A stretch of 64,000 bases of DNA from Candidatus Woesearchaeota archaeon (GCA_016184345.1 JACPCV010000005.1:97017-161016), one strand, 5' to 3'. Positions 1 to 55,519 are shown, counted from the first letter of the stretch. Translations and numbers: made by a program. The notes: a model not told the origin generated them from the letters alone.

Positions 1-471
1 ACGTATGGCTGGGCCATACTTGTCGTCCTGGTTGTTATCGGTGCGCTGGCGTATTTCGGCGTGCTGTCGCCATCAACATTGCTTCCTGAAAAGTGCACAT
101 TCCCTGTAAGCTTAAGCTGCACAGACCACTCTGTTAGTGGTACAGCCATTACTTTAATACTGCAGAACGGCGCAGGAAGAGACATGACTATAACAAGGAT
201 ATCAGCCGCTTCAGAGGCGCTGGGTGGTGGGGCAAACCCTGCCAACCTTGGCTGCGCGTGCGGCACAGGAGCCATCAGCACGACTTTCAGAAATGGTGGC
301 AGTGCAACTTTTATACTTAGCACTCCAGATGCAGGGTGCGCAACTTATTGCCAGTTCAGGGACACTGGCAGGGACAAGAACAGGTACAATATAACTCTCA
401 CGTACAGTTGGCTTGACAGCCCGACAATAACCCACCAGCTGTCTGGTGAATTGCTGGCAAGAAGGACGTAA
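1..471 (+). CDS. Archaeal type IV pilin-like protein, 5' end cut by window edge
   Basis: Frame is open from nt 1 (TYGWAILVVLVVIGALAYFGVLSPSTLLPEKCTFPV...). Hydrophobic pilin N-terminal helix. About 90% nt identity of nt 1-130 to 2002-2131 of the paralog at 1951-2526. Shared C-terminus GRDKNRYN..YSWLD..SGELLAR. Confidence 0.8.
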   Translation, partial: TYGWAILVVLVVIGALAYFGVLSPSTLLPEKCTFPVSLSCTDHSVSGTAITLILQNGAGRDMTITRISAASEALGGGANPANLGCACGTGAISTTFRNGGSATFILSTPDAGCATYCQFRDTGRDKNRYNITLTYSWLDSPTITHQLSGELLARRT

Positions 472-5378: not shown

Positions 5379-5476
5379 GGGAAAGAGGTTCAATCCAGAA
5401 AACGAAAGCTTTTTGATTAACCTTTCCCAAATCGTGCAAACGCACGATTGGGCCCAGTCGCTGGAGGCGACTTGGG
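5379..5476. repeat. Composite hairpin element (long hairpin plus twin bulged hairpins)
   Basis: Hairpin gggaaagaggttcaatc..gattaacctttccc (5379-5428). Twin hairpins cccaaatcg..cgattggg (5426-5452) and cccagtcgc..gcgacttggg (5453-5476). Same modules as the proS insert at 34257-34345. Confidence 0.85.
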
Positions 5477-7417: not shown

Positions 7418-7792
7418 TTAAGCAACTACCGGCACAGGAATAGGCAGTTTCTTCTCAACGATAGTGTTTTCATTCTTCCCTGGAATGGAGAGTTTAATCC
7501 ATACTATGGCATAATCTGCCCTCTTGCTAACAGTTATTTCTGCGCTTTTGAGTTCAGCTAGGTGCTCTTTTTGCACACCAACGTGATTAAGGAACTCCGA
7601 GGCATAAACCAATTCAATGCCAACAATGTTGCTGTTTTTGTCAAAATCAAAACTGAAGTCAGAAAGCTCTGCACTTCCTTCAACCTTCTTCCCTCTTCTG
7701 TGTATGTTCAATATGTCGGATTTCTCATTATAATCCCACACAAAATATCTGTCCTGGCCAGCTGTCATGGTTTCCATTACATCATTTATCAT
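7418..7792 (-). CDS. DUF2283-like small protein (putative antitoxin partner)
   Basis: YFVWDYNEKSDILNIHRR...FDFDKNSNIVGIELVYASEFL follows the DUF2283 pattern. It lies immediately downstream of 7795-8127. Confidence 0.45.
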   Translation of the reverse strand: MINDVMETMTAGQDRYFVWDYNEKSDILNIHRRGKKVEGSAELSDFSFDFDKNSNIVGIELVYASEFLNHVGVQKEHLAELKSAEITVSKRADYAIVWIKLSIPGKNENTIVEKKLPIPVPVVA

Positions 7793-7794
7793 AT

Positions 7795-8127
7795 TTAAAA
7801 CCTTCGTCTTTTGACTGATCCTAACCTGAAATTACTGCTTAGTCTCTTAACTGTCCGGATATTTACCTTCCTGTAGACTAATAAATCCACTATTATTTTC
7901 AGTTCAGTTTTCCTGTTAAGCTTATAGTAGAGCTTATAAACCTTGGGCCTATCTTCAACCACTCTTATAAGTTCGTGTGCCTTCCCACGCAATACGCTCT
8001 TAACATACTCCAAAGTTATGCCATTCTCCTCGCAGCGCATAGCGACATGCGGCTGGTCAGCAGTAATGTCTTCCTCACTAAGCCCTTGAGCTAGCTTATT
8101 AAAATCGGCAGGTTCCATGCAACTCAA
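7795..8127 (-). CDS. DUF4258-like small protein (putative toxin partner)
   Basis: PHVAMRCEENGITLEYVKSVLRG resembles the DUF4258 H..RM.ERGI core. Adjacent to the DUF2283-like gene with a 2-nt gap. Confidence 0.35.
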   Translation of the reverse strand: MSCMEPADFNKLAQGLSEEDITADQPHVAMRCEENGITLEYVKSVLRGKAHELIRVVEDRPKVYKLYYKLNRKTELKIIVDLLVYRKVNIRTVKRLSSNFRLGSVKRRRF

Positions 8128-30497: not shown

Positions 30498-30709
30498 CGA
30501 GCCCGCCGGGACTTCCTCACTGGCGTTCGGGGCATAAATCGCTGATGCGATTGTGCCCAGTCGGTTTTGCACCGACTTGGGCATTGCCGCCTCGGGCGCC
30601 AATATTTGAACCCAGATCAATCGGTTGCTTCTTCTTCGTTTTTGATTGGCCTTTTTCCTAAAAAGGTCATCCGAAGCCGATCGCACTGTCCGGATTGTGC
30701 TACAGGCCC
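30498..30709 (-). tRNA. tRNA-Arg (TCG) with a 45-nt anticodon-loop intron and a 93-nt T-loop insertion
   Basis: Acceptor GGGCCTG/CGGGCTC (two G-U pairs), D-arm GCAC..GTGC. Anticodon arm ATCGG-CTTCGGA[30625-30669]-CCGAT. T-arm CTGGG-TTCAAAT[30511-30603]CCCGG. Confidence 0.7.
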
Positions 30710-30943: not shown

Positions 30944-31534
30944 ATGCAAAAATTAAGAAAGCACTTTGCAAATGCAATCGGAATTTTAGCGAAAAACCTC
31001 ACAAAAAAGCAAGTTGCCATAATATCAGTAATAGCCCTAGCGTTCGTTGCCCTTTTTCATGATTTCTTCAAAGCGCTGACAGGGGTAACGTTGCTTTTCC
31101 TTCTCGGAGCGTTTTCCACCTTCTACAAAAAGAAGCTTGAGGGGTTTGGAGCAATAGGATTTGAACTGGTCACTTTCACAACAACAATAGCTGGTGTTGC
31201 TTTTGGCCCACTTGCCGGAGCGATGTTTGGCTTCGCAACTGCCCTGTCCTCTGTATTGATATCAAAGGATGTTGGTGTCACAACCCCCGTATTCCTGCTC
31301 GCCACAGCCATAGCTGGCGGGTTAGCACATCCTCTAAGTGCACTATTCAGCATAGTCCAATTAGGTATTATGCTCGTCCTTTTTTCAACAGCGACTATAC
31401 TGGTTTTTACATTCCTCTTTTACCGGGATGCCGAAATCAGGGCTGCAGGCATGCTCGGCATACTGACAAACCTGGCAGTTAATTACATCTTCTTCTCTTA
31501 CCTTGCAAAGCCCATCCTGGCCATTATTGCATAG
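30944..31534 (+). CDS. ~196-aa polytopic membrane protein, paralog family member 2 of 4
   Basis: FSTFYKKKLEGFGAIGFELVTFTTTIAGVAFGPLAGAMFG aligns with members 3 and 4. Confidence 0.65.
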   Translation: MQKLRKHFANAIGILAKNLTKKQVAIISVIALAFVALFHDFFKALTGVTLLFLLGAFSTFYKKKLEGFGAIGFELVTFTTTIAGVAFGPLAGAMFGFATALSSVLISKDVGVTTPVFLLATAIAGGLAHPLSALFSIVQLGIMLVLFSTATILVFTFLFYRDAEIRAAGMLGILTNLAVNYIFFSYLAKPILAIIA

Positions 31535-31537
31535 AAG

Positions 31538-32134
31538 TTACATGACCAGCCCTTTCACGAATGCTCCCAGCAGCGAGAAAATGATGAAGTTGGAAGAGAT
31601 GTTGATAATCACGAAAGCCAGAAGCTTTACCCTGAGCTCAGCATCGCTCTGCAGCGCATACAAGGGCTGCGCTACTAGGTTGTAAAGCACGCTCATCCAC
31701 AAGCCCAGCGTGACTATGTTGGCTGCAGGAAAAAACGCAGAAACAGCGCCTACAATCGCCCTTGCCGGTATGTAGCCTATTATGAAAGCGTCAACACCTG
31801 AATTGAATATCTCAGCAGCGAGGGTGATGACCGCCCCGAAAATGGCTCCAGTAACAGGGCCGTATGAAATGCCTACCATTACCGTGCTGAACGTCACAAG
31901 CTCAATGGCAGGAGGCACCCTCATGAAGCGCTTGTAAAATGTTGAAAACACCGCAATAATGCCAAGTGCGGCCAGGACAAGGGTATCCTTGACGTAATTC
32001 CTGAAAAGAAACATAAGCACAAGCCCGAGTGCAGCCCCAAAAAGAAGCTGCTTATGGCGGAGCAGGGAGGAAAAGTCCCTGGCAGCAAGTGCCTTCAACC
32101 GGCTTCCCCCCAGGTAAAAGTTTCCAAAAGCCAT
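31538..32134 (-). CDS. ~198-aa polytopic membrane protein, paralog family member 3 of 4
   Basis: FSTFYKRFMRVPPAIELVTFSTVMVGISYGPVTGAIFG; LYNLVAQPLY. Confidence 0.65.
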   Translation of the reverse strand: MAFGNFYLGGSRLKALAARDFSSLLRHKQLLFGAALGLVLMFLFRNYVKDTLVLAALGIIAVFSTFYKRFMRVPPAIELVTFSTVMVGISYGPVTGAIFGAVITLAAEIFNSGVDAFIIGYIPARAIVGAVSAFFPAANIVTLGLWMSVLYNLVAQPLYALQSDAELRVKLLAFVIINISSNFIIFSLLGAFVKGLVM

Positions 32135-32170
32135 ATCCTCCTTGTAAGGCGCCTGCCAATATAAACCTAT

Positions 32171-32749
32171 TCACGCGAGCTTTGACAAAACAGCGAACAG
32201 CGGCTCGCCGAGGAACTTGAAGATCAGGAAATTCATGGGTATGTTGAGCGAGCCGAAATAAATTGACTTTATGCGCTTCTCCGGGTCTGTCAGGTACCAG
32301 TAAACAGGCTGCTGGAGCAGGTTGTAGAGAAGGCTCATCAGCAGGCCAATCAGTGCAACACTAACCCCGCTATGGTAAAGCCACGGTGCCACAAACGCAG
32401 TGGCAATCCTGGGAGGTATGTAAGTCATGCTGAACGGGTCAAGGGCCTGCGAGGCAACCTCTGAAGTTATGCTTATGACGGCAGCGTACAGCGCCCCAAT
32501 CCAAGGGCCGTAGAATATGCCTACAGCCACTACAGTGAGCGTTATGAGCTCAAACGCCGGAGGCGCCTGGAACACCCTCTTGTAAAAAGTTGAGAAGGTG
32601 GCTGCAAGGCCAAGAATGCCCATTATTATGAAAGCCTTGACCTGTGACGTAAACAGGATAAACAGCAAAATAAACGCAAACGAGAAGAAGACATAGCTCT
32701 TATGCCTCATTATGAGCTTAAAGAGGGAGACAAGCCATGCTTTTGCCAT
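32171..32749 (-). CDS. ~192-aa polytopic membrane protein, paralog family member 4 of 4
   Basis: FSTFYKRVFQAPPAFELITLTVVAVGIFYGPWIGALYA; LYNLLQQPVY. Confidence 0.65.
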   Translation of the reverse strand: MAKAWLVSLFKLIMRHKSYVFFSFAFILLFILFTSQVKAFIIMGILGLAATFSTFYKRVFQAPPAFELITLTVVAVGIFYGPWIGALYAAVISITSEVASQALDPFSMTYIPPRIATAFVAPWLYHSGVSVALIGLLMSLLYNLLQQPVYWYLTDPEKRIKSIYFGSLNIPMNFLIFKFLGEPLFAVLSKLA

Positions 32750-32820
32750 TAAAAAAGCTGATGTGCCCCGGCTAAATATAAACTTTTTCGTTGCCGCAGC
32801 GTAAATGCGACTTGGGAAAC

Positions 32821-32829: not shown

Positions 32830-32859
32830 CGCCCCACAGCTGATTTGAATGCGATAACT

Positions 32860-34407
32860 ATGTCTGATGGCAAAAACAAAAAGGCCGCTGCAGCAGCCGA
32901 AGACAAAAAGACAATCGGGCTTACCGTAAAGAAATCCGAGGACTTCTCAGAGTGGTACACACAGGTAATCGCCAAGGCAGAGCTTGCAGACTACACGAAA
33001 GTGTCAGGATGCCTGGTGCTCAGGCCTTACGCATACGCAATCTGGGAAAAGATAGTCAAAGAGGTTGATGCAAGGCTCAAGAAGATGAGGGTGCAGAACT
33101 GCTACTTCCCGCTGCTCATACCCGAGAGCCTGCTCAAGAAGGAGGAGCAGCACATCCAGGGATTCGCGCCCGAAGTTGCCTGGGTAACCCATGCAAGCGA
33201 CACCAAGCTTGATGAGCGGCTCGCAGTAAGGCCTACTTCCGAGACAATAATGTACGATTCTGTCTCAAAATGGGTAAGGAGCTGGAGGGATTTGCCTCTC
33301 AAGCTTAACCAGTGGAACAACGTTGTACGGTGGGAGTTCAAGCACCCCACGCCCTTCATAAGGACAAGAGAATTCCTCTGGAACGAAGGACACACTGCCT
33401 TTGCCACAAAAGAAGAGGCAGAGGCCGAGATAGGGGAGATACTGTCGCTATGGAAGGATATCACTGAAAATTTCCTTGCAGTTGCCGGAATTACAGGGCA
33501 AAAAAGCCAGTCCGAGAAGTTTGCCGGCGCAGTTGCCAGCTACAGCATAGAATTCTTCCTCCCAAACGGCAGGGCAGCGCAGGGGCCTGACGCACACTTT
33601 GACGGCCAGAACTTTGCCAAGGCGTTTGACATCACATTCCTGAACGAGAAAGGCGAAAAGGATTATGTCTGGCAGAACACGTGGGCAATAACCACAAGGA
33701 TGATTGGCATACTGGCAATGGTGCACGGCGACGACAAAGGCTTGGTTATCCCGCCAAACATAGCGCCTGTACAAATAGTTATTGTCCCGATATTGTTTGA
33801 AGACTCCAAAAAGGAAGTCCTGGCAGCTGCAAACAAGATAAGAAAAGAGCTGGAGAAAGAAAGCATAGCTGCCGAAGTTGACGGCCGCGAGACTTACACT
33901 GCCGGCTGGAAGTTCAACGAGTGGGAGCTTAAGGGCGTCCCAGTCAGGATAGAAATTGGACCTAGAGACATGCAGCAGAAGCAGGCCATCATCGTAAGGA
34001 GAGACACATCAGCGAAGGAAACCGTCAAGCTGGAAGCTGTTGCAGCTGCCGCAAGGAAAACGCTTGCCGAAATCCAGGAGTCACTCTACCAAAAGTCAAA
34101 GCAGCAGCTTGAAAACAGCATTGTGGCTGCCAAAAACATTGGTGAAATCGCCACTGCAGTGAAAAGCAAGAAGCTCGCAAAAGCAGATTTCTGCGGCTCA
34201 GCAAAGTGCGAGGCAGAAGTCAAGGAAAAAGCGGACGGAGCAACCTCAAGGTGCATGACCCTTTTAGAACCCAAATCGACAGAAGCCGATTGGGCCCAGT
34301 CGTCGCAACGACTTGGGAAAGGGTCAATCCAAAAACGCGAACAAATGGGCAAATGCGTTGTGTGCGGAAAAGAAGGAGTTGCGAGCTGGTTTGGGAAGGC
34401 GTACTGA
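32860..34407 (+). CDS. proS: Prolyl-tRNA synthetase, archaeal type, with an in-frame repeat-derived insertion near the C-terminus
   Basis: FSEWYTQVI, RPTSETIMY, WNNVVRWE (class II motifs), and the C-terminal ..CVVCGKEG..WFGKAY end. Extra residues TLLEPKSTEADWAQSSQRLGKGS.. are encoded by the element at 34257-34325. Confidence 0.9.
   Translation: MSDGKNKKAAAAAEDKKTIGLTVKKSEDFSEWYTQVIAKAELADYTKVSGCLVLRPYAYAIWEKIVKEVDARLKKMRVQNCYFPLLIPESLLKKEEQHIQGFAPEVAWVTHASDTKLDERLAVRPTSETIMYDSVSKWVRSWRDLPLKLNQWNNVVRWEFKHPTPFIRTREFLWNEGHTAFATKEEAEAEIGEILSLWKDITENFLAVAGITGQKSQSEKFAGAVASYSIEFFLPNGRAAQGPDAHFDGQNFAKAFDITFLNEKGEKDYVWQNTWAITTRMIGILAMVHGDDKGLVIPPNIAPVQIVIVPILFEDSKKEVLAAANKIRKELEKESIAAEVDGRETYTAGWKFNEWELKGVPVRIEIGPRDMQQKQAIIVRRDTSAKETVKLEAVAAAARKTLAEIQESLYQKSKQQLENSIVAAKNIGEIATAVKSKKLAKADFCGSAKCEAEVKEKADGATSRCMTLLEPKSTEADWAQSSQRLGKGSIQKREQMGKCVVCGKEGVASWFGKAY
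34257..34345 (+). repeat. Structured element inside proS: 8-bp outer stem enclosing twin bulged hairpins, followed by an AATCCAAAAACG tail
   Basis: gacccttt (34257-34264) pairs with aaagggtc (34318-34325). Inner hairpins are cccaaatcg/cgattggg and cccagtcg/cgacttggg. The core is 69 nt, or 23 codons. Related to tRNA intron modules and to 5379-5476. Confidence 0.85.
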
Positions 34408-34409
34408 CA

Positions 34410-34544
34410 ATGCTTAATGACCAAGATTTTATTGTGAAAGCGCGACTTAAGGAAATAAAGGTCAATCCTTTAATTGGAAGATCGGAAAAAGAACTTGACG
34501 CTTACCTTGCAAAAAGAGGAGTAAAAGTTGTTCAGAATATTTAA
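34410..34544 (+). CDS. Small putative antitoxin (44 aa)
   Basis: MLNDQDFIVKARLKEIK.... Overlaps the start of the RelE-like gene by 17 nt. Confidence 0.4.
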   Translation: MLNDQDFIVKARLKEIKVNPLIGRSEKELDAYLAKRGVKVVQNI

Positions 34545-34857
34545 GTCGGCAACGTTTGATAAGGACTTCGATAAGCTTGATAATTCAGAGCAGAAGCGGG
34601 TAGATAAGATTCTGAATCAATTGCTGGAGCGCGGCGGCGAAGTTGGAAAGCCGCTTTCAGGATTACCTTTCTTTAAAGAAAAGAAGTTTGACGGGAAAAG
34701 GCTTTATTTCCTTGTTTATGAAAACCTTCATGTTGTTCTTGTTCTTGCAATAAGCGACAAAAAAGCGCAGCAAACTACTATTAATTTAATTCTGCGTGAC
34801 TTGGCACAATATCAGCAATACGTTCTTGCCGAACTTAAAAAGAAAGCAGTTACTTAA
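34528..34857 (+). CDS. relE: RelE/ParE-superfamily toxin-like protein
   Basis: TTG start. FDKDFDKLDNSEQKRVDKILNQL...GKPLSG...KFDGKRLYFLVYENLHVVLVLAISDKK is typical of a RelE-like addiction-module toxin. Confidence 0.55.
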   Translation: MFRIFKSATFDKDFDKLDNSEQKRVDKILNQLLERGGEVGKPLSGLPFFKEKKFDGKRLYFLVYENLHVVLVLAISDKKAQQTTINLILRDLAQYQQYVLAELKKKAVT

Positions 34858-35008
34858 ATTGTTTAGGCTTCCACTCGCTTATTCTGCCGTGCTTAACGTC
34901 TTCCAGGCTTCTGCGGATTTTTTCCACCAGTTCGTAATCTATTTCAGCCTCTTGTGCCTTCCTCTTAAGAGTCTCGTACTCTTCTTTTGAGATAGTTACT
35001 GTTTCCAT
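34850..35008 (-). CDS. Small ORF (52 aa), antitoxin-like; not in the supplied ORF track
   Basis: METVTISKEEYETLKRKAQEAEIDYELVEKIRRSLEDVKHGRISEWKPKQFK. Convergent with the RelE-like gene, overlapping its end by 8 nt. Confidence 0.35.
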   Translation of the reverse strand: METVTISKEEYETLKRKAQEAEIDYELVEKIRRSLEDVKHGRISEWKPKQFK

Positions 35009-35057
35009 TTCAGTTTAACGCTATTCAGAGTTTATACTATTTAAATTTTCCGCCTTT

Positions 35058-35108
35058 ATCGTGTGCGGCAAGGAAGGAACGGTTGCGTGGTTTGGAAAAG
35101 CTTACTAG
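35058..35108 (+). repeat. Displaced copy 2 of the proS 3' end
   Basis: Translates as IVCGKEGTVAWFGKAY*, against CVVCGKEGVASWFGKAY* in proS. The nt sequence has diverged mainly at synonymous positions. Confidence 0.85.
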
Positions 35109-35109
35109 C

Positions 35110-35409
35110 TTACTTTAGCATTCGTAGTTCTTTCTCTAAATCCTCTATTGAGTAGCTGGACCTGTAGCCGTTATCGACTAAGTACTGTTCCATCTCCCAA
35201 ATTGTGAGCTCTGCTTTGCGTGCCGCTTCTGAAATGCTTATCTTGCCCTTCATGTACTCGCCTGCAGCCTTTTTTTCCAACAGGGCTTTAAGTCCTATTG
35301 TAACCGCCTTCCTGATTATCGTGCTTCTATCCTCCAGTTCTGATTTTCCCAAGTACTCTGCCTTTTTTAGAATATCATCCGATAGCCTCACTCCCACCGC
35401 TGCTGTCAT
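35110..35409 (-). CDS. RHH/UPF0175-like antitoxin
   Basis: VRLSDDILKKAEYL...RSTIIRKAV (ribbon-helix-helix-like) followed by ISISEAARKAELTIWEMEQYL (UPF0175-like). Overlaps the upstream PIN-like gene by 4 nt. Confidence 0.5.
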   Translation of the reverse strand: MTAAVGVRLSDDILKKAEYLGKSELEDRSTIIRKAVTIGLKALLEKKAAGEYMKGKISISEAARKAELTIWEMEQYLVDNGYRSSYSIEDLEKELRMLK

Positions 35410-35906
35410 TTTGTGCCCTCCATTAAAGCCTTATCAAGTATAGCATCCCCGAACCAGCCAATCTTCCTCAATTCTGTGATGGATTCCTTAAACTTCATAT
35501 AGTCAATAAGCTTTGCAAGCTTTAGCCTGAGCACAATTGCCAACGTTCCAATCGTTCTTACGTCAATTAAAACCGCTTTCTTCCTTACATTGTCATCGTC
35601 GGTTGCCAGCATTTCTGCTTTTTCCTGCCAGTAGAGTGCAACTGCTTCAGCTTCCCCGCCTTTGATGTTAAACTCATTTGCCTTTTTAACCAAAGTAGCA
35701 TCCTTGACGCGTACAACCCTTAGTTTGCGCTCATTAACCAGATTCTCAACAACCCTCGCATCAGCATACCCTTTGCTTAAGCCTTCCATAACCTCTTCAT
35801 ACACCAGTCTTGGAGTGATAACTTCCTTAAAGTAACCACAGCTTTTCTCCAAAAGTGATATCTTGGCCAGATGGATTAAAACCATTGCATCCTTGACAAT
35901 CAACAT
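35406..35906 (-). CDS. PIN-like (DUF3368-type) toxin
   Basis: ATG at 35906, with tatttaaat 25-33 nt upstream. MLIVKDAMVLIHLAKISLL...LATDDDNVRKKA.... Confidence 0.5.
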   Translation of the reverse strand: MLIVKDAMVLIHLAKISLLEKSCGYFKEVITPRLVYEEVMEGLSKGYADARVVENLVNERKLRVVRVKDATLVKKANEFNIKGGEAEAVALYWQEKAEMLATDDDNVRKKAVLIDVRTIGTLAIVLRLKLAKLIDYMKFKESITELRKIGWFGDAILDKALMEGTK

Positions 35907-35977
35907 TTGTAATACAATGTGCACATTGTATATTTAAATGTTTCTGTTTCACTCAAAAATACAGAAACCCAGAAAAA

Positions 35978-36037
35978 GGCGGCTGTGCTGTGTGTGGCAA
36001 GGAAGAAATAGTTACGTGGTTCGGGAAGGCGTATTGA
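35978..36037 (+). repeat. Displaced copy 3 of the proS 3' end
   Basis: Translates as GGCAVCGKEEIVTWFGKAY*. Confidence 0.85.
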
Positions 36038-36068
36038 ACTTAGAGAATCAGAAAAAATGAGCATGACT

Positions 36069-37151
36069 TTAAGGTCTTCTTATCAACCTTCCTACACCAC
36101 TAAAATTAAACCTGCTAGCTAAGCCCTTAAGCCCTCTTCTGGCTGCCTGAGCCTGCCTCAGCCCAGCAACCTGCCTCTTGATGCCGATTGAGTTCAGCGT
36201 CCCTGTTTTAGTTTCTCCCTTCAAATCATTTAGCCGTCTTTGAATAAGCTGCTGCACTTTGTTAACGTCATTCCCCTCCAACGCCCTAAGCCCTGCCTGT
36301 ATTTTGTCAATGTCTGAGATGGCAGCTTCAAGCTGAAGTATTGCGTGTGGGATGTCATTTGCACGCAGGTATGCCTCTGCCTTTGTGAAATAATTGGTAA
36401 AAGCCCTCTCGAGTTGGCCTACAGCAACCGCGTGCGTTTCCAAAGTGCTCTTGACAGTGGCGACCTGCTCGTTTATTCTCCTCTTTGCGTCCTGCTCAAA
36501 CTTGCCCTTCACCTGTGCCCATTTCGCGTTGTTAGGTCCCTTGCCTGCCCAGCCAGAAGCTTTCCTCGCAACAATCTCTTCTGAAATCTCTTTCCTGGTG
36601 CCTGCAAACATTTTGTTAATGTTATTATTTTCAGCAATCTCAAGCTGTTCCAGCTGCCCGATTAGCCCCCTCAATTCCTGCTCCAAGTTACTAATCCTGC
36701 TTGAATACTGCACAATCTCGCCAACCTTCAGCCTCACTTCTTCAACAAGGTCTGGACTCTCTCTGCCGGCTTTAACCATTTTTCGTAAAGCATCAATCAT
36801 CCTCTTACAAGCGTTTTTGATTTCGTCCCAAAGCTTGCTCTCATTGAATGTCAGGCTCCGAATCATGCGAATATCAATGAGCTCCCTGGCTTCCTCCGCA
36901 AGCTCAGTAGCGCGCTCTTTTGCTTCAGTACCTTCCTCGGCAAGCGCAGCCTGGTCCTCAGCTGTTGCAACGGCAGCACTGCCTGGTCTGCTGCCGCCTC
37001 TGCCACCAAAGAGATTGCCGCCCCAACTGCCGCCGTCTCCACCCTGGTTGCTGTCTCCTCTAAATACGCCAATTACTTCTTTAATTGCTAGGATAACAAG
37101 GGCAACTTCCAAGAATCCAACAAAATCAGCTACAGCATCAAACAGTACCAT
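36069..37151 (-). CDS. Membrane-anchored Gly-rich/coiled-coil protein (FHA operon gene 3)
   Basis: The ATG at 37151 lies 1 nt after the upstream stop. N-terminal TM (FVGFLEVALVILAI), GGDGGSWGGNLFGGRGGSRPG, then a long helical region. The track's longer N-terminal extension overlaps the upstream gene. Confidence 0.6.
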   Translation of the reverse strand: MVLFDAVADFVGFLEVALVILAIKEVIGVFRGDSNQGGDGGSWGGNLFGGRGGSRPGSAAVATAEDQAALAEEGTEAKERATELAEEARELIDIRMIRSLTFNESKLWDEIKNACKRMIDALRKMVKAGRESPDLVEEVRLKVGEIVQYSSRISNLEQELRGLIGQLEQLEIAENNNINKMFAGTRKEISEEIVARKASGWAGKGPNNAKWAQVKGKFEQDAKRRINEQVATVKSTLETHAVAVGQLERAFTNYFTKAEAYLRANDIPHAILQLEAAISDIDKIQAGLRALEGNDVNKVQQLIQRRLNDLKGETKTGTLNSIGIKRQVAGLRQAQAARRGLKGLASRFNFSGVGRLIRRP

Positions 37152-37152
37152 C

Positions 37153-37869
37153 TTACTTTTTCGCCCCGAATCTTTGTAACTTTCTGGCGGCTGTGGCCGC
37201 GAGTTTAATGCCTCTTTTAGATATCTGCTCCAAACTGAACCTGTCACTAAAACGTATAAAGTATACTGTGGTGAGAATGCCAAAACCACGGGGAGTTCCC
37301 CCGCCACCGGTAAACTTGTCTGCCACAAAACCGCTAATGTGGTCAAGTATGTACAAAAGAAGTATGATAAAAACAAGTCTCGTAAGTGCTAGAATCCTTC
37401 CTGGCGGTACCATAGTTGGCAAGCCACCGTAAAGAAATGCGAGGAGTCCAATGGCAAGAAAACCAACCAAAGCCGCAGCCACAACAGTGCTGTAGCTTTC
37501 ACCAATGCCTATAAGTAATTGAGGGCTTATAAAAATACTGCCCACTGTGGCGAAAACCATTGCAATGGCCATGGAAGCTCCGCCTGCGAACATGCCTGCT
37601 CCTGCAGCACCACCTCCTAGTCTTCTAAGCGCTGTCCACACCACAGTAAAGACAACAATCCAGACCATTATTCTCATAAATCCAGCAAGCTTTGCAGCAT
37701 CATTATCCAAAAAGTTAAGTTGTGCTATGCTCAGTAAGCTATCAGAAGTCCTCTTCCAAAAATTCTCTCTCTGCGCAGCTACAGTCGCAGAAAGGGAGAG
37801 GAACATTACCGCAGCTATTACGACAAGTAGTAAGACTCTCTTATTGCCCTCATTCATTAATCTACACAC
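37153..37869 (-). CDS. Polytopic membrane protein (FHA operon gene 2)
   Basis: 238 aa with about 6 hydrophobic segments. Confidence 0.6.
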   Translation of the reverse strand: MCRLMNEGNKRVLLLVVIAAVMFLSLSATVAAQRENFWKRTSDSLLSIAQLNFLDNDAAKLAGFMRIMVWIVVFTVVWTALRRLGGGAAGAGMFAGGASMAIAMVFATVGSIFISPQLLIGIGESYSTVVAAALVGFLAIGLLAFLYGGLPTMVPPGRILALTRLVFIILLLYILDHISGFVADKFTGGGGTPRGFGILTTVYFIRFSDRFSLEQISKRGIKLAATAARKLQRFGAKK

Positions 37870-39198: not shown

Positions 39199-39600
39199 TT
39201 AAATGTTTCGCAGCAATTCCGCAGCTGTGACTATTTTTGCGCTTCTGAACTTTTTAAGCACTAGCAGGTCTTTATCGCCAGATATTATGTAATCAGCATT
39301 ACCCTCTAAAGCTGCCTCTAACAGCTTATTATCATCAGGGTCTCTGCATACGCTTCTTACCTTCTCTTTTGGCATAACAACCTCAGCTGCTTCGATAAGC
39401 GCGTTTACGAAGTCGTTAACCTCTTCCTCACTAAAGCCGAACTTAGGCCTTAAAGCTACCTCTTTGAATTCGTCAAGAACATCTACGGAAGTGATAATAA
39501 TAATTTCTCTCACAAAACATTTCTCAATCAGCCGGTACTCGTTCCCTTCCACTATAAGAGCAGAAATTAGGACGTTTGTGTCAGGAACTACCCGCAGCAT
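39199..39600 (-). CDS. vapC: PIN-domain toxin (VapC-like)
   Basis: MLRVVPDTNVLISALI...IISGDKDLL. Confidence 0.8.
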   Translation of the reverse strand: MLRVVPDTNVLISALIVEGNEYRLIEKCFVREIIIITSVDVLDEFKEVALRPKFGFSEEEVNDFVNALIEAAEVVMPKEKVRSVCRDPDDNKLLEAALEGNADYIISGDKDLLVLKKFRSAKIVTAAELLRNI

Positions 39601-39859
39601 GCCTTGCCTTCCTCACAGCCTTAATCTCCCTTGCAATGTCTTCCCTAGTTATGCCGCGCTCCTTGAAGCGCTTTGTAGCCTCGGCTGCTAATTCGCGAAA
39701 AACCTCAATCGGCTCTCTTTTCTTTCTTATCAAGATTGTGTCGTCTGAGTAAAAGAAGTCAAGAACTTGCCCCTCTTCCAGTTCCAGGGCCTCTCTTATG
39801 GAGGCGGGTAGCGTTATCTGACCTTGCCTTGTTATCTTATAAGTTCCTGCGGTCTTCAT
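39581..39859 (-). CDS. vapB: AbrB/SpoVT-type antitoxin (VapB-like)
   Basis: YKITRQGQITLPASIREALELEEGQVLDF. Overlaps vapC by 20 nt. tatttaaa lies 24 nt upstream. Confidence 0.75.
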   Translation of the reverse strand: MKTAGTYKITRQGQITLPASIREALELEEGQVLDFFYSDDTILIRKKREPIEVFRELAAEATKRFKERGITREDIAREIKAVRKARHAAGSS

Positions 39860-40053
39860 AATAGTATTTGTAGTAGAGATAGTATTTAAACTTTTCTGTT
39901 TTATTGCGCCATTGAAAAGTTGCCGTTGTTCGGCCAGCTTGACACTACCCGTTGCAGCTGTTCGGCAGCAGTGCAGCCTCCTTAGCGACCAAAAGCTTTA
40001 TATTCTTACATTTCTTACAAATAAGAAGAATAGACGATACGGAGGTGGTTGAG

Positions 40054-40302
40054 ATGGAGCTGCTTGAGATGAAGAGTGCCAAGATAACAAAGAAAGGGCA
40101 GATTGCCATTCCCAAAAGTGTAAGAAAGCTTGAAGGATTTAGTGAAGGCTCAAAGGTGGCAATTCTTGCGTTTAAGGACAGAGTTGAACTGAAGCCTATG
40201 AAGCAAATCAGCAGAATCGCGCTTACAGCCCTGGCAAGCGAAAAAACGCTTGCGAAAGACTGGGATACTAAAGAGGAAGATGACGCATGGAAAAACTTGT
40301 GA
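40054..40302 (+). CDS. mazE: AbrB/MazE-type antitoxin
   Basis: ggaggtg RBS at 40041-40047. KITKKGQIAIPKSVRKLEGFSEGSKVAI. Confidence 0.7.
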   Translation: MELLEMKSAKITKKGQIAIPKSVRKLEGFSEGSKVAILAFKDRVELKPMKQISRIALTALASEKTLAKDWDTKEEDDAWKNL

Positions 40303-40619
40303 AGGGAGACATAGTCGTTGTGCCGTTTCCTTTTTCCGACCTGAGCGCTTCAAAGAAAAGACCTGCACTTGTGATTGCATCTTTAACAGGAAATGACCTC
40401 ATTCTCTGCCAGATAACAAGCAAAGCAAAATTTGACGGCTATTCGATAAGCCTTGCCGGTGCAGATTTTGAAAAAGGAGGGCTGAATGTGCCAAGCAGGA
40501 TAAGGCCGAATCGGTTGTTTACAGCTGACAACTCAATAATCCTGTACAAAGCAGGCTCACTTCGGCAGGGGAAAATCAATGAGGTTGAAGAAGCACTGGT
40601 CAGGATAATCCGGGGTTAA
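40287..40619 (+). CDS. mazF: MazF/PemK-family toxin
   Basis: GDIVVVPFPFSDLSASKKRPALVI...RPNRLFT. Confidence 0.85.
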   Translation: MEKLVKGDIVVVPFPFSDLSASKKRPALVIASLTGNDLILCQITSKAKFDGYSISLAGADFEKGGLNVPSRIRPNRLFTADNSIILYKAGSLRQGKINEVEEALVRIIRG

Positions 40620-41449
40620 TGAGGTTAGGTATGCGCTTCATTACTGCAACTGATGTTAAGCTGAAAAAGAGGAAGCCTGACAGCCACAAAGGCGAGAACG
40701 GCCGCGTTTTGGTCGTTGCAGGCTCAATTGACTACGTTGGCGCTGCTTACCTGGCAGGGATGGCTGCTTTCCGGTCTGGTGTTGACGCTGTTGTCGTTGC
40801 AGCCCCTGAGAAGGTTGCGTGGGCAATCAACTGCCTTTCCCCTGATTTCATAACGAAGAAGTTCAGGGGCGATTTCTTCACAGCTGCGACAGCGAAGGAA
40901 ATAGTTGAGATGAGCAAAAAGTTTGACGTCACATTAATTGGCAACGGCGTAGGGAAAAGTATTGAAACGCTAAAATTTGCTGCAGCCGTATGCAGGAAAA
41001 TAGAAAGCACTAAAGTGATTGATGCCGATGCCATCTCCGCAGTGAGAATGCAGGAAGTGCAAAACGCCATATTCACGCCGCACCATGCAGAATATGACCT
41101 GCTGCTGAGAAATAGCCACTGTAGTGAAAAGCGACTGCAAACGGTTATTGGCACGAATGTCATACTGCTCAAAGGCAGGATAGATGCGATAATTGCAAAG
41201 GGAAAAACAGCTTACAACAGGACAGGAAACGCCGGCATGACGGTCGGGGGAACTGGCGACGTACTTGCAGGGCTTACTGCAGGCATTTTGGCGCAGGAAA
41301 AGGACCTGTTCAAGGCAGCAGCTGCGGCGGCTTACGTTAACGGGAAAGCAGGAGACCTGCTGCTGAGGGAATATGGCTATGGGTTCACTGCCAGTGATTT
41401 GCTCCAGGAACTGCCTGCTGTGCTGAAGCAGCTGTGGGGCATCGAATAA
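40619..41449 (+). CDS. nnrD: ADP-dependent NAD(P)H-hydrate dehydratase (YjeF C-terminal type)
   Basis: HKGENGRVLVVAGS..YVGAAYLA, TPHHAEY, GGTGDVLAGL. Confidence 0.85.
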   Translation: MRLGMRFITATDVKLKKRKPDSHKGENGRVLVVAGSIDYVGAAYLAGMAAFRSGVDAVVVAAPEKVAWAINCLSPDFITKKFRGDFFTAATAKEIVEMSKKFDVTLIGNGVGKSIETLKFAAAVCRKIESTKVIDADAISAVRMQEVQNAIFTPHHAEYDLLLRNSHCSEKRLQTVIGTNVILLKGRIDAIIAKGKTAYNRTGNAGMTVGGTGDVLAGLTAGILAQEKDLFKAAAAAAYVNGKAGDLLLREYGYGFTASDLLQELPAVLKQLWGIE

Positions 41450-41508
41450 GCACAATTTTACTTAAAATTTTAGTAAAATTTATAAATACTAAGGTTCTTA
41501 GTAATGTT

Positions 41509-41757
41509 ATGAGTGAAACGACTGTCGTAACACGGGGAAGTCAGATAACCCTGACAAAAGCCATAAGGGAAAAAACCGGCATAAGGGAGGGAGATACGGT
41601 TACACTAAACGTGGCTGGGGGAAATGTAATCGTTGCCAAAAGGGACCCGTCTGTGTTTGACAATCTTAAAAGATTCCTGCCTGATAATTTTGAAGAAATC
41701 CTAAAAAAGACGCGAACAGACGACAGGAAACGGTTAAAGAGGCTTGGCATTATTTAA
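41509..41757 (+). CDS. vapB: AbrB/SpoVT-type antitoxin (VapB-like)
   Basis: VVTRGSQITLTKAIREKTGIREGDTVTL. tttataaata lies about 25 nt upstream. Confidence 0.7.
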   Translation: MSETTVVTRGSQITLTKAIREKTGIREGDTVTLNVAGGNVIVAKRDPSVFDNLKRFLPDNFEEILKKTRTDDRKRLKRLGII

Positions 41758-41760
41758 ACA

Positions 41761-41913
41761 ACAGAATTCCACTCATCTATGATGAGTGGGGTTCTGTGTG
41801 CTCAAAAACCACCGGTTCGTGGAATTCTGAGCGTCAAAACAGCATCGGCAGCAGCCGATGCGTATCGACCCGAGGTCGATAAATGCCACCGGTCTCTGAC
41901 CGGTGGTTTTTGA
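41761..41913. repeat. Multi-hairpin element inserted between vapB and vapC
   Basis: Hairpins at 41769-41789, 41842-41861 (gcatcggc/gccgatgc, as at 8213-8232), 41863-41881 and 41887-41907. A 14-bp long-range stem pairs 41804-41817 with 41900-41913. Confidence 0.85.
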
Positions 41914-41926
41914 CAGGCGATAATTC

Positions 41927-42355
41927 ATGAAGATACTCTTTGACACCAGCGCACTGATAGAGCTGGAAAGGCAAAATCAGGAAGCTATTGTGCTTGTCAA
42001 AGGCTTAATCACAGGCAAAGAAGAAATTGTGATAAGCACCGTAACTATTTCTGAAGTATTGTTAGGCGTTTATTTCCAGAAAGCTTATGAAAAAATTGTA
42101 GAGGCCAAAAAGCTCCTATCCCAGTTTAAATGGATACCTTTGGATGAAAACATAGCCGATATGGCGGCCCAGTATGAGGCGTTGCTGCTGAACATTGGGA
42201 ACGAAATTGAATTCAAGGATGTTGCAATAGCCGCAACCTTTGCAGCCACGAAATCAGATTTTTTAATTACACAAAACAAGAGGCATTTTCAAATTTTGCC
42301 AGATATTGGAAACAGTGCCAAAACGATTGCAGAATTTAGCAAAATTTATCGGTAA
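41927..42355 (+). CDS. vapC: PIN-domain toxin (VapC-like)
   Basis: MKILFDTSALIELER...DVAIAATF...LITQNKRHF. Confidence 0.8.
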   Translation: MKILFDTSALIELERQNQEAIVLVKGLITGKEEIVISTVTISEVLLGVYFQKAYEKIVEAKKLLSQFKWIPLDENIADMAAQYEALLLNIGNEIEFKDVAIAATFAATKSDFLITQNKRHFQILPDIGNSAKTIAEFSKIYR

Positions 42356-46652: not shown

Positions 46653-47045
46653 CTACTTAACAAACTCCACGTTTTCTAGCCCTTCAAACTCCCTGTCGCC
46701 AGTAAGGAATTTTACTTTTAATTTCCTTGCCAAAACGTATCCGATGCAGTCAACGAAAGAAATATTACTTCCCTTTATCTTCGCCTTAATTTCCGCCCTT
46801 AAGGAAGCAGATTCCTTAATGGTTTCATCGCTGATTCCGACGCAAAAATCCTTGAACTCATTGAAAGCTATCTCTGCCGCGTTCCTTCCGTGCTTTACAA
46901 GATAACTGTAGTAAAGTTCCATGAGGTTCAGTTTTGTAGTCGCAATTCCTGACAGATTGCTGTAAGGTTCATAGGCTTCGTCGCCCTCTTTTATCTTGTG
47001 CAAGGCATATGTATCGAAGAAATAATTGCTCAATCTTTTCCCCAC
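46653..47045 (-). CDS. vapC: PIN-domain toxin
   Basis: YFFDTYALHKI...FVDCIGYVLA...FLTGDREF. Confidence 0.75.
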   Translation of the reverse strand: MGKRLSNYFFDTYALHKIKEGDEAYEPYSNLSGIATTKLNLMELYYSYLVKHGRNAAEIAFNEFKDFCVGISDETIKESASLRAEIKAKIKGSNISFVDCIGYVLARKLKVKFLTGDREFEGLENVEFVK

Positions 47046-55050: not shown

Positions 55051-55135
55051 AGTTGCATTCCATGATTAGCCTGTTTAGCTACTTCTGGAAGTTGCTAGCG
55101 GAAAGCTTAAATAAGCCTGCAGCATATATTTGAGC

Positions 55136-55519
55136 ATGGTAGCGTATTTGACAAATGATGAAGTCATGGCAATTAATAAGGAAGTTTTATCCTCAATAAA
55201 GGTTAAAAAAGCAGACAGCTTTAAGGTGCTAAGCCACCGCAAATTGAACGCTGTTTTGGAGAAGGTGGCAGAAGCCTCGGGCGATGTTTATGACAAAGCT
55301 GTGGCACTACTAAAAGGCATATCGCAGGAGCACCCCTTTGCAAGCGGGAACAGGAGGACATCAATGGTTGCTACAGTAAGATTCCTTAGGATGAATGGTG
55401 AAGAGGCGCTAGTGAAGGACGATGCAAAAATCCTTCAAGGAGTGCGTGAGAGCTACTATACCGACGCTGAAATAAAGCAATGGCTTAAAGGAGGTGATAT
55501 GCGTGAATTCAAAAGATGA
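55136..55519 (+). CDS. doc: Fic/Doc-family toxin (Doc-like)
   Basis: ISQEHPFASGNRRTSMVA matches the Doc-type Fic motif H.F..GN(K/R)R. Confidence 0.7.
   Translation: MVAYLTNDEVMAINKEVLSSIKVKKADSFKVLSHRKLNAVLEKVAEASGDVYDKAVALLKGISQEHPFASGNRRTSMVATVRFLRMNGEEALVKDDAKILQGVRESYYTDAEIKQWLKGGDMREFKR

What the first reader, a model, noticed from the sequence alone, without database searches (positions are those of the whole stretch)
34359..36037. Three copies of the proS 3' end with toxin-antitoxin cassettes between them: serial site-specific insertion into a protein-gene terminus
The last ~16-19 codons of proS (..CVVCGKEGVASWFGKAY*) recur at 35058-35108 (IVCGKEGTVAWFGKAY*) and 35978-36037 (GGCAVCGKEEIVTWFGKAY*). 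The copies are conserved at the protein level but diverged at many synonymous sites. The first interval holds a RelE-like pair plus a small ORF, and the second holds a UPF0175/PIN-like pair. This is the signature left when integrative elements target a gene's 3' end and bring their own replacement end, as is classic for tRNA genes. Here the target is an aaRS gene, the cargo is TA modules, and no integrase is visible. The synonymous divergence suggests each cassette arrived with a proS end from a different donor lineage.
Basis: partly seen in the sequence, partly recalled or inferred. Interest (0 to 1): 0.82.

Follow-up and report, generated by a model that had tools for sequence, protein, structure and literature searches.

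The report
Toxin-antitoxin cassettes stacked at proS end
In a tiny DPANN archaeon, small toxin-antitoxin gene cassettes have been inserted one after another into the very end of the essential prolyl-tRNA synthetase gene, each insertion leaving an old copy of the gene's last ~17 codons behind; this is a new example of a known way in which mobile DNA targets gene ends, unusual because no integrase is seen in or near any of the arrays examined.

Summary
The last 16-22 codons of an archaeal-type proS (32860-34407, Woesearchaeota) recur at 35055-35108 and 35972-36037. No other part of proS recurs, and proS is the only one of 68 genes in the window with a repeated end. The copies differ mostly at third codon positions. 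Cassette 1 holds a weakly RelE/ParE-like ORF and two small ORFs. Cassette 2 is a UPF0175/DUF3368 (PIN-like) pair.

Related Woesearchaeota show every state at the same spot: empty (L081, L001), cassette 1 only (L082), cassette 2 only (L093, L097), another cassette plus cassette 2 (L096, L100) and a Fic cassette (L084). Unrelated single cassettes lie between proS-end repeats in two distant DPANN lineages (L012, L071). Cassette 2 is much more alike between two genomes than their host genes are, which points to horizontal exchange.

No integrase was found in the window or in the gene tables of the related loci. Cassettes are 0.4-1.2 kb and visibly eroding.

Best reading: relics of serial recombination at an att-like site in the proS terminus, reduced to toxin-antitoxin islets. 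The recombinase is unknown, and homology-driven exchange remains a live rival. I rate it a new variant of a known kind, of moderate interest.

The parts
32860..34407 (+). proS, archaeal-type prolyl-tRNA synthetase (515 aa from the ATG at 32860; a TTG at 32845 is also open)
   Evidence: Pfam tRNA-synt_2b, HGTP_anticodon and ProRS-C_1. Best homologues are Woesearchaeota ProRS at 75-82% identity.
34266..34328 (+). 63-nt in-frame insert of a double-hairpin repeat element inside proS, just 5' of the repeated end. It is probably unrelated to the cassettes.
   Evidence: Absent from the 15 closest ProRS. The same element occurs at 5426-5476 and 30533-30582. DNA fold -20.6 kcal/mol, z = -3.9.
34354..34407 (+). 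Copy w1: the working proS end (CVVCGKEGVASWFGKAY*), proximal att-like repeat
34410..34544 (+). orf44, a truncated remnant of a 67-aa gene that is intact in the first cassette of L100
   Evidence: tblastn 72% identity over 39 aa to L100 5111-5227. No family hit.
34528..34857 (+). 109-aa ORF, weakly RelE/ParE-like (cassette 1)
   Evidence: TIGR02683 E 6e-4, below cut-off. PDB RelE E 0.65. The homologue in L082 has an in-frame TAG.
34850..35008 (-). 52-aa ORF (cassette 1), conserved in L082 (90%) and L086 (87%); possible antitoxin, unassigned
35055..35108 (+). Copy w2: relic proS end ((F)IVCGKEGTVAWFGKAY*), not part of any ORF of 30 aa or more
35110..35409 (-). UPF0175-family putative antitoxin (cassette 2). 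Its stop codon lies 1 nt from the stop of w2. The same junction (stop-C-TTA) follows the working proS end in L093.
   Evidence: PF03683, 31.4 bits against a cut-off of 27.9; junction
35406..35906 (-). DUF3368 (PIN-like) putative toxin (cassette 2), 166 aa from the ATG at 35906
   Evidence: PF11848. An identical protein is on 13 contigs.
35913..35938 (-). Cassette 2's own control region: an 18-bp perfect palindrome TACAATGTGCACATTGTA (35913-35930), then a TATA-like ATATTTAAA (35930-38). It is conserved in L093, L094, L096, L097 and L100.
   Evidence: Read from the sequence. Function is inferred.
35972..36037 (+). Copy w3: distal relic proS end (EKGGCAVCGKEEIVTWFGKAY*), the longest copy, 31 nt from the stop of the next gene
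36069..37376 (-). Conserved convergent neighbour (membrane/coiled-coil protein). It abuts proS directly in the cassette-free relatives and so marks the far edge of the insertion.
   Evidence: Synteny with L001 and L081

Best explanation
The 1.63 kb between the proS stop (34407) and the third copy (36037) is a fossil array. It was left by serial recombination of small mobile elements into an att-like site formed by the last ~40-66 nt of proS.

Each event was a Campbell-type crossover between the resident gene end and a proS-end mimic carried by the incoming DNA. The crossover rebuilt a complete, working end next to the gene body and pushed the previous end downstream as a non-coding relic. ProRS of this type needs its exact C-terminus, so only events that rebuild it survive.

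The elements have since eroded to integrase-less toxin-antitoxin islets. These are held by addiction, trimmed by deletions, and lost again by recombination between the repeats. At least cassette 2 is still exchanged between lineages.

Shown: the repeats, their coding-type divergence, the empty and differently filled sites, the chimeric make-up of relics, the erosion, and the horizontal exchange of cassette 2. Inferred: that the original insertions were catalysed by a site-specific (tyrosine-type) recombinase that was lost from the elements or acts in trans.
For: - **Repeat anatomy and statistics:**
- **Empty sites with conserved synteny:** L001 and L081.
- **Alternative fillings of the same site:** cassette 1 only in L082/L083; Fic cassette in L084/L085; cassette 2 only in L093 and L097; a 93-aa antitoxin-like gene plus cassette 2 in L096; another cassette plus cassette 2 with three copies in L100.
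- **Independent cases:** unrelated cargo between proS-end repeats in distant DPANN lineages L012 and L071.
- **Chimeric relics as a crossover inside the end predicts:** the 3' part of the L082 relic matches the native end of L081 at 25 of 30 nt, including GTCCTGAGC. The two genomes are sisters, with 78% identity at four-fold sites. Copy w2 shares its 5' part with the L082 relic (17 of 21) and a 15-nt run GTTGCGTGGTTTGGA with the end that precedes cassette 2 in L093.
- **Decayed relics elsewhere** show that distal copies are non-functional: a frameshift in L094, a lost stop and a 1-nt deletion in L100, W>R in L082 and L093.
- **Horizontal exchange of cassette 2:** identity at four-fold sites is 67/91 in the cassette against 399/849 in eight flanking host genes for window vs L096 (P = 1.4e-6). 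For L097 vs L100 it is 59/95 against 59/156 (P = 2.5e-4).
- **Literature:** integration into 3'-distal regions of archaeal protein genes and tandem arrays are documented (PMC6563490). Erosion of mobile elements to toxin-antitoxin-only islets has been proposed (PMC13617665).
Against: - No integrase, transposase or recombinase family was found in the 64-kb window or in the Pfam gene tables of the related loci that came with one. L012, L071 and L086 had no such table. None recurs within 4 kb downstream of proS in 78 other archaeal genomes. No intact element has been seen.
- No free or viral form carrying a proS end was found.
- The three copies share no long identical core. The longest runs common to all three are about 5 nt.
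- The 5' limit of the relic differs among copies of the same cassette (about 39, 54 and 66 nt for cassette 2), which a fixed crossover point does not predict unless later deletions trimmed it.
- The recently exchanged tract of cassette 2 excludes the repeats.
- Cassette 1 shows no excess similarity over host genes between the window and L082 (107/162 against 302/476 third positions, P = 0.57). It may simply be old and vertically inherited.
- Why w2, w3 and the relics of L096 and L097 still read as perfect proS ends, when synonymous sites of the host genes are near saturation, is not explained by a single ancient event.
Confidence: 0.55

Rival explanations
1. Integrase-free, homology-anchored cassette exchange. 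Once a cassette sits between two proS ends, ordinary homologous recombination moves it. This could be a double crossover, with the long proS body as the left arm and the ~50-nt relic pairing with the recipient's own proS end as the right arm. It could also be a single crossover of an excised circle. The same process replaces or deletes cassettes. The highly conserved proS terminus serves as a portable homology arm, because the next gene downstream is too variable to do so.
For: - No recombinase gene in any array.
- Variable repeat lengths of 33-66 nt and variable 5' limits.
- The downstream gene is only 24-33% identical in protein between the window and three relatives (68% with L096), whereas ProRS is 73-85% identical.
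- The relics of L084 and L097 are 85% identical although the cassettes beside them differ (Fic against cassette 2). This looks like cassette replacement between fixed arms.
- In L093 both copies share the lineage-specific FGRAY and 24 identical nt running past the stop, as conversion or a donor from the same population would give.
- Toxin-antitoxin islets spreading by homologous recombination at flanking core genes has been proposed for bacteria (PMC13617665).
Against: - It does not explain how each of at least six unrelated cassettes first came to lie between two proS ends, including in distant lineages (L012, L071).
- No other gene of the window has a duplicated end, and the other polymorphic toxin-antitoxin loci (39.2-42.4 kb) have no flanking repeats.
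- Arms of 50 nt at 70-85% identity are poor substrates for homologous recombination.
- The high-identity tract of cassette 2 ends inside the cassette, not in the arms. That fits allele replacement within an existing cassette rather than arm-mediated import.
Confidence: 0.25
2. One ancient array, inherited vertically and lost differentially. On this reading the relics stay recognisable because they have a present function at the DNA or RNA level, such as a terminator or 3' region of the convergent neighbour, or an upstream element of the cassette 2 promoter. They would not be records of recent events.
For: - Cassette 2 lies next to proS in six different genomes, down to 63% PIN identity.
- Cassette 1's divergence equals that of the host.
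- Relics are better conserved than neighbouring intergenic DNA.
Against: - Cassette 2 is far more similar than host genes in two genome pairs, so it is not purely vertical.
- Relics lie in different contexts: before a convergent gene, before a co-directional gene in L084 and L097, and between two cassettes for w2.
- What is conserved is the codon pattern of ProRS, with third-position changes, not a structure. No fold is better than shuffles.
- Several relics are frameshifted or have lost the stop without loss of the cassette.
- Unrelated cassettes occur in L012, L071 and L084.
Confidence: 0.1
3. Local tandem duplication of the proS 3' end (replication slippage or unequal crossing-over), followed by unrelated insertion of toxin-antitoxin genes between the copies; or an assembly artefact.
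For: The repeats are direct, close together and on one strand.
Against: - Copies of one genome differ at 27-33% of positions with a coding bias that neutral decay of a duplicate would not give.
- Relics match the ends of other genomes better than their own working end.
- Only the last 16-24 codons are repeated.
- The same architecture is seen in independent assemblies. Identical contigs from independent sequencing runs span the array.
Confidence: 0.05

Closest known systems
[quoted passage not shown] 14 of 68 thaumarchaeal elements; tandem arrays at one site), PMC6563490
   Same: The target is the 3' end of a conserved protein gene. att-like direct repeats flank the insert, one of them being the gene's own end. 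The gene is rebuilt by sequence from the element. Relatives have empty sites. The same site is re-used to give arrays.
   Different: Those elements are kilobases long and most carry a tyrosine integrase or casposase, with att sites that are generally short (13 bp in the example shown). Here every unit is 0.4-1.2 kb and carries only toxin-antitoxin-type genes. None has an integrase, the repeats are 33-66 nt, the host is a DPANN archaeon and the target is an aminoacyl-tRNA synthetase gene.
CIMEs (cis-mobilizable elements) and accretion at the 3' end of fda in Streptococcus thermophilus/salivarius (ICESt1/ICESt3 family; reviewed in PMC5704250, PMC7563491; details from my own knowledge)
   Same: Integrase-less units are bounded by att sites at the 3' end of a housekeeping gene and stacked in tandem by successive site-specific events. 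They are thought to be decayed integrative elements that a related element can mobilise in cis.
   Different: For CIMEs the cognate integrative element with the same att site and integrase is known. Here no such partner has been found. CIMEs are bacterial and larger.
Toxin-antitoxin-only 'islets' left by erosion of mobile elements (Photorhabdus study, PMC13617665)
   Same: Very small islands hold only toxin-antitoxin genes and lie between core genes without integrase or transposase. They vary between close relatives and are proposed to persist by addiction and spread by homologous recombination at the flanks. Pseudogenisation is seen (the RelE-like gene of L082).
   Different: No duplicated gene ends are described there. 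In the present case the islets keep a readable record of each insertion.
Integron cassette arrays (toxin-antitoxin cassettes of chromosomal integrons, PMC13108822)
   Same: An ordered array of one- or two-gene cassettes, each followed by a ~50-60-nt recombination-site-like repeat and anchored at one fixed site. Toxin-antitoxin cargo. The same cassette occurs in different combinations in different genomes.
   Different: There is no intI next to the array. The repeats do not fold into attC-like hairpins. Cassette 2 carries its own promoter-like and operator-like sequence. The repeats are copies of a coding end.
Mobile endonuclease ORFs in organelle and phage genes that bring a replacement C-terminus and leave the original one downstream (e.g. 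atp6 of Allomyces macrogynus; from my own knowledge, not checked here)
   Same: An insertion into the 3' part of an essential gene that supplies a foreign, synonymous-diverged copy of the gene's end and displaces the resident end as a downstream relic.
   Different: Those elements encode the DNA endonuclease that drives homing. No DNA endonuclease is recognisable here: PIN-like, RelE-like and Fic proteins are not known homing enzymes.

Membership tests
Site-specific integrative element at a gene 3' end (tyrosine-recombinase type) | Direct att repeats flank the insert, one overlapping the 3' end of the target gene, which stays intact | tested here: met
   Three copies in register, with the working end at 34354-34407. 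The same holds in L012, L071, L082, L084, L093, L096, L097 and L100.
Site-specific integrative element at a gene 3' end (tyrosine-recombinase type) | Empty target site in related genomes | tested here: met
   In L001 and L081 the proS stop is followed within about 15-20 nt by the conserved convergent gene.
Site-specific integrative element at a gene 3' end (tyrosine-recombinase type) | Integrase gene inside or next to the element | tested here: not met
   No Phage_integrase, resolvase or transposase family in the window (the last third of the window was only partly listed) or in the gene tables of the relatives. None recurs downstream of proS in 78 genomes.
Site-specific integrative element at a gene 3' end (tyrosine-recombinase type) | A common identical core at which strand exchange occurs | tested here: inconclusive
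   Window copies share only runs of about 5 nt. Younger pairs share 24-36 nt (L093, L012, L071). Chimeric relics place the crossover near the KEG codons.
Site-specific integrative element at a gene 3' end (tyrosine-recombinase type) | Excised circular form or free replicon carrying attP | not testable with these tools
   No reads are available. Pattern and protein scans of viral contigs found nothing.
CIME (cis-mobilizable element) | Bounded by att sites and lacking recombination and transfer genes | tested here: met
   Anatomy as above.
CIME (cis-mobilizable element) | A cognate autonomous element with the same att site exists and can mobilise it | tested here: not met
   No larger element lies between proS-end copies within 10 kb in 85 proS loci. 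None was found in viral contigs.
Integron | intI integrase and attI next to the array | tested here: not met
   Upstream of proS lie three paralogous membrane-protein genes. No integrase in the window.
Integron | attC sites: imperfect palindromes that fold as hairpins | tested here: not met
   All three copies, on both strands, fold no better than shuffles (z from -0.7 to +2.2).
IMEX (elements exploiting Xer at dif) | Repeats are dif-like 28-bp imperfect palindromes | tested here: not met
   There is no dyad symmetry in the copies.
Transposon / casposon | Terminal inverted repeats and a target-site duplication of fixed length | tested here: not met
   No inverted repeats bound the cassettes. 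Repeat length ranges from 33 to 66 nt.
Type II toxin-antitoxin module (cassette 2) | Two small adjacent, overlapping genes from a known antitoxin/toxin family pair | tested here: met
   UPF0175 (PF03683) and DUF3368 (PF11848) overlap by 4 nt. The pair is conserved in six genomes.
Type II toxin-antitoxin module (cassette 2) | Toxicity neutralised by the partner protein | not testable with these tools
   Needs expression experiments.
RelE/ParE toxin (109-aa ORF of cassette 1) | Significant match to a RelE/ParE family model | tested here: inconclusive
   No Pfam hit. TIGR02683 scores 20 bits against a cut-off of 62.9. PDB RelE E 0.65 over residues 12-83.

The most novel reading that the evidence does not exclude
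The proS terminus of these DPANN archaea is a working cassette platform without a resident integrase. The nearly invariant last codons of an essential synthetase gene act as the shared recombination or homology site. Through it, one- and two-gene toxin-antitoxin cassettes are gained, swapped and lost among lineages, as in an integron but with a coding gene end in place of attC. Repeated cycles of loss, in which a relic becomes the working end again, would keep the relics coding-competent. That would explain why several relics still read as perfect ProRS ends although host synonymous sites are near saturation.
Probability: 0.2. Interest if true: 0.8.

Novelty: new variant of a known kind. Interest (0 to 1): 0.55.

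Why it matters
DPANN archaea have tiny genomes, and their mobile elements and routes of gene exchange are poorly known. This locus shows that an essential synthetase gene's terminus is used repeatedly as a landing site. That has happened in at least three separate lineages, with unrelated cargo. Because the relic gene ends are kept, the order and source of past insertions can partly be read from the sequence.

It also gives a concrete case for an open question about toxin-antitoxin genes: how do they move when no integrase or transposase accompanies them? If the exchange proves independent of an integrase, it would be a cassette system built on a coding sequence rather than a dedicated recombination site. 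If an integrase acting in trans is found, it would define a new attB in archaea and give a handle on DPANN mobile elements.

Tried and rejected
- **Longer proS pseudogenes:** rejected. Only the last 16-24 residues recur.
- **attC-like hairpins in the copies:** rejected.
- **Integrase in the window:** not found in three Pfam batches plus a direct scan of five ORFs from the last third. The third batch listed only 25 of 72 families.
- **Integrase recurring downstream of proS in 78 archaeal genomes:** not among the 25 most frequent families. Single occurrences cannot be excluded.
- **Free elements carrying a proS end:** a degenerate DNA pattern found nothing in viral contigs. In metagenome contigs it found only two loci, L086 (an informative array fragment) and L087 (a proS end followed by a gene with a weak sub-threshold match to DNA damage-inducible protein D, no second copy).
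- **Cassette proteins in viral contigs:** none.
- **Repeats flanking the other toxin-antitoxin loci of the window (38.6-42.6 kb):** none convincing.
- **Duplicated ends of other genes in the window:** none.
- **tRNA genes near the arrays:** none.
- **Look-ups of the window's own ProRS and PIN by exact sequence** failed with my start codons.
- **Logan contig break at window 34307:** at first this looked like evidence for an alternative junction. It falls in the loop of a multi-copy hairpin repeat, so it is more simply an assembly break at a repeat.
- **Recent transfer of cassette 1:** tested and not supported.

Full report
**1. The observation**

The window comes from a Woesearchaeota (DPANN) genome. 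The ProRS encoded at 32860-34407 has its best matches (75-82% identity) in Woesearchaeota MAGs. It has the class II core, the anticodon-binding domain and the ProRS-C_1 domain.

The repeat finder returns one outstanding family, three direct copies ending at 34407, 35108 and 36037. In the alignment, similarity ends at the stop codon in all three. The copies encode CVVCGKEGVASWFGKAY*, (F)IVCGKEGTVAWFGKAY* and (EKGG)CAVCGKEEIVTWFGKAY*.

- A tblastn of the whole ProRS against 34408-36100 finds only residues 500-515 and 492-515. Nothing else scores below E = 0.5, so these are not remains of longer pseudogenes.
- Of 68 ORFs in the window, only proS has its C-terminal peptide plus stop repeated outside a full paralogue.
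- The copies differ at 14-17 of 51 nt, mostly at third positions, and keep 12 of 17 residues. Random substitution gives this with P = 0.0001-0.0024. Each copy therefore diverged while it served as a coding end.
- Neither relic lies in an ORF of 30 aa or more.
- Four of five Logan contigs from independent sequencing runs, identical to the window, span all three copies.

**2. The cargo**

Cassette 2 (35109-35971) is a UPF0175/DUF3368 (PIN-like) pair on the minus strand. Between the PIN start and w3 it has its own 18-bp palindrome and a TATA-like box. Both are conserved in every homologous cassette.

Cassette 1 (34408-35054) is not a clean unit.
- The 109-aa ORF matches RelE/ParE only below threshold.
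- The 52-aa ORF is convergent to it.
- orf44, which starts 3 nt after the proS stop, is the C-terminal 39 residues of a 67-aa gene that is intact in the first cassette of L100.
- A HicB-like gene is intact beside the 52-aa ORF in L086, reduced to an ~80-nt stump in L082 and absent from the window.

The cassettes are therefore eroding by deletion.

**3. Comparison with other genomes**

Synteny around proS is conserved.

| Locus | Content between proS and its neighbour |
|---|---|
| L001, L081 | Empty: the convergent neighbour follows the proS stop within ~15-20 nt |
| L082/L083 | Cassette 1 only; the RelE-like gene has an in-frame TAG; decayed relic CIVCGKEGVLSRFWKAY* |
| L084/L085 | A Fic gene between the working end and a relic |
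| L093, L097 | Cassette 2 only |
| L096 | A 93-aa antitoxin-like gene plus cassette 2, between two copies |
| L100-L103 | Three copies and two cassettes, as in the window, but with decayed relics |
| L094 | Cassette 2 with a frameshifted relic |

Among 80 proS loci from GTDB representative genomes, almost all archaeal, two further lineages carry a single unrelated cassette between proS-end repeats. These are L012 (36 of 42 nt identical) and L071, an Aenigmatarchaeote (about 33 nt). No pair of copies encloses more than 1.2 kb.

**4. Evidence on how the array formed**

A crossover inside the gene end predicts chimeric copies. The working end should be host 5' part plus element 3' part. The relic should be element 5' part plus the previous end's 3' part. 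Both predictions are seen.
- L081 and L082 are sister genomes, with 78% identity at four-fold sites. The 3' part of the L082 relic carries the variable-region codons of L081's native end (GTCCTGAGC; 25 of 30 nt), not those of L082's own working end.
- Copy w2 shares its 5' part, including an unusual ATC codon, with the relic to the right of cassette 1 in L082.
- Copy w2 also shares a 15-nt run with the end that precedes cassette 2 in L093. There the junction stop-C-TTA is the same as in the window.

Cassette 2 has moved between lineages. At four-fold degenerate sites it is 74% identical between the window and L096, against 47% for eight flanking host genes (P = 1.4e-6). Between L097 and L100 the figures are 62% and 38% (P = 2.5e-4). 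Cassette 1 shows no such excess.

**5. What does not fit a simple integrase model**

- No integrase, transposase or recombinase family appears in the window or in the gene tables of the related loci. None recurs downstream of proS in 78 other genomes.
- No viral or free form was found.
- The copies have no hairpin and no long shared core.
- The relic's 5' limit varies among copies of the same cassette.
- The tract of cassette 2 recently shared with L096 (~35125-35945, ~92% identity) stops short of both relics, which are 40-55% identical.
- The relics of L084 and L097 are 85% identical although the cassettes beside them differ.
- Both copies in L093 share a lineage-specific Lys>Arg change.

These points are better explained by homologous exchange, conversion and deletion acting on an existing array. 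Several relics remain perfect coding ends although host synonymous sites are near saturation. I cannot explain this with a single ancient event. Either turnover is frequent or the relics are under some constraint.

**6. Conclusion and comparison with known systems**

Integration of archaeal elements into 3'-distal regions of protein genes, with rebuilding of the gene end and tandem arrays, is documented (PMC6563490). Integrase-less att-bounded remnants stacked at the 3' end of a housekeeping gene are known in streptococci as CIMEs (PMC5704250, PMC7563491). Erosion of mobile elements to toxin-antitoxin-only islets that then spread by flanking homology has been proposed (PMC13617665). The present locus combines these.

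Its differences are the host (DPANN), the target (a synthetase whose exact C-terminus is needed; that need is from my own knowledge of ProRS structures), the uniformly tiny integrase-less units, the long repeats, and the recurrence in separate lineages.

It fails the defining tests for an integron, an IMEX and a transposon. It meets the anatomical tests, but not the enzymatic ones, for a site-specific integrative element.

I rate it a new variant of a known kind. I put 0.55 on serial att-type insertion followed by erosion and 0.25 on an integrase-free, homology-driven mechanism.

Noticed in passing
window 34266-34328 (inside proS); also 5426-5476, 30533-30582, a half copy at ~32806-32820 just upstream of the proS TATA-like box; L084 3488-3784 and 5900-5950: A 63-nt in-frame insert in proS (LEPKSTEADWAQSSQRLGKGS) is absent from the 15 closest ProRS. 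It is a copy of a short repeated element made of two adjacent hairpins with conserved stems and variable loops (CCCAAATCG-loop-CGATTGGG, CCCAGTCG-loop-CGACTTGGG). Other copies lie in intergenic, promoter-proximal positions, including upstream of proS in L084. DNA fold z = -3.9; no Rfam family. It recalls the palindromic elements inserted in frame in Rickettsia genes (comparison from my own knowledge).
   Followed up: partly
window 34307; loci L088-L092: Logan contigs L088-L091, each from a different sequencing run and 100% identical to the window, all end at exactly 34307. This is the loop of the second hairpin of that repeat element, so it is probably an assembly break at a multi-copy repeat. 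One short contig (L092) ends inside w2 (35100) and inside w3 (36016), which could hint at variant junctions in that sample.
   Followed up: partly
window 39199-42355, 46653-47045, 7418-8127, 55130-55519: The window carries many further toxin-antitoxin-type genes (PIN_3/MazE, MazE/PemK, MazE/PIN, a lone PIN, DUF2283, a short Fic/Doc). Those at 39.2-40.6 kb vary between relatives: present in L096 and partly in L081, absent in L082 and L094. They have no flanking direct repeats or duplicated gene ends.
   Followed up: partly
window 35913-35938: A perfect 18-bp palindrome TACAATGTGCACATTGTA next to a TATA-like box lies between the PIN-like gene's start and w3. It is conserved in all six homologous cassettes and is probably the operator and promoter of the UPF0175/DUF3368 operon.
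   Followed up: partly
window 61-471 and 1921-2526: Two paralogous small proteins share an identical 16-residue stretch (LSPSTLLPEKCTFPVS) and similar C-termini. They sit in a cluster of genes, several starting with KKGQ-type pilin-like N-termini, near type IV pilus/secretion genes (T2SSE, T2SSF).
   Followed up: no
window 30944-32749: Three paralogous 192-198-aa membrane-protein genes with no family assignment lie directly upstream of proS. Their order is conserved in L001, L081, L082, L084 and L096.
   Followed up: no
L087 690-1547: In a 364-kb metagenome contig, the proS end (SCVKCGKEGVLAYFGKAY*) is followed by a 285-aa gene on the opposite strand with only a weak, sub-threshold match to DNA damage-inducible protein D (NCBIfam, 30 bits against a cut-off of 242). 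By eye its N-terminus resembles phage Bro-N/antirepressor domains. No second proS-end copy lies in the 2.9 kb available.
   Followed up: no
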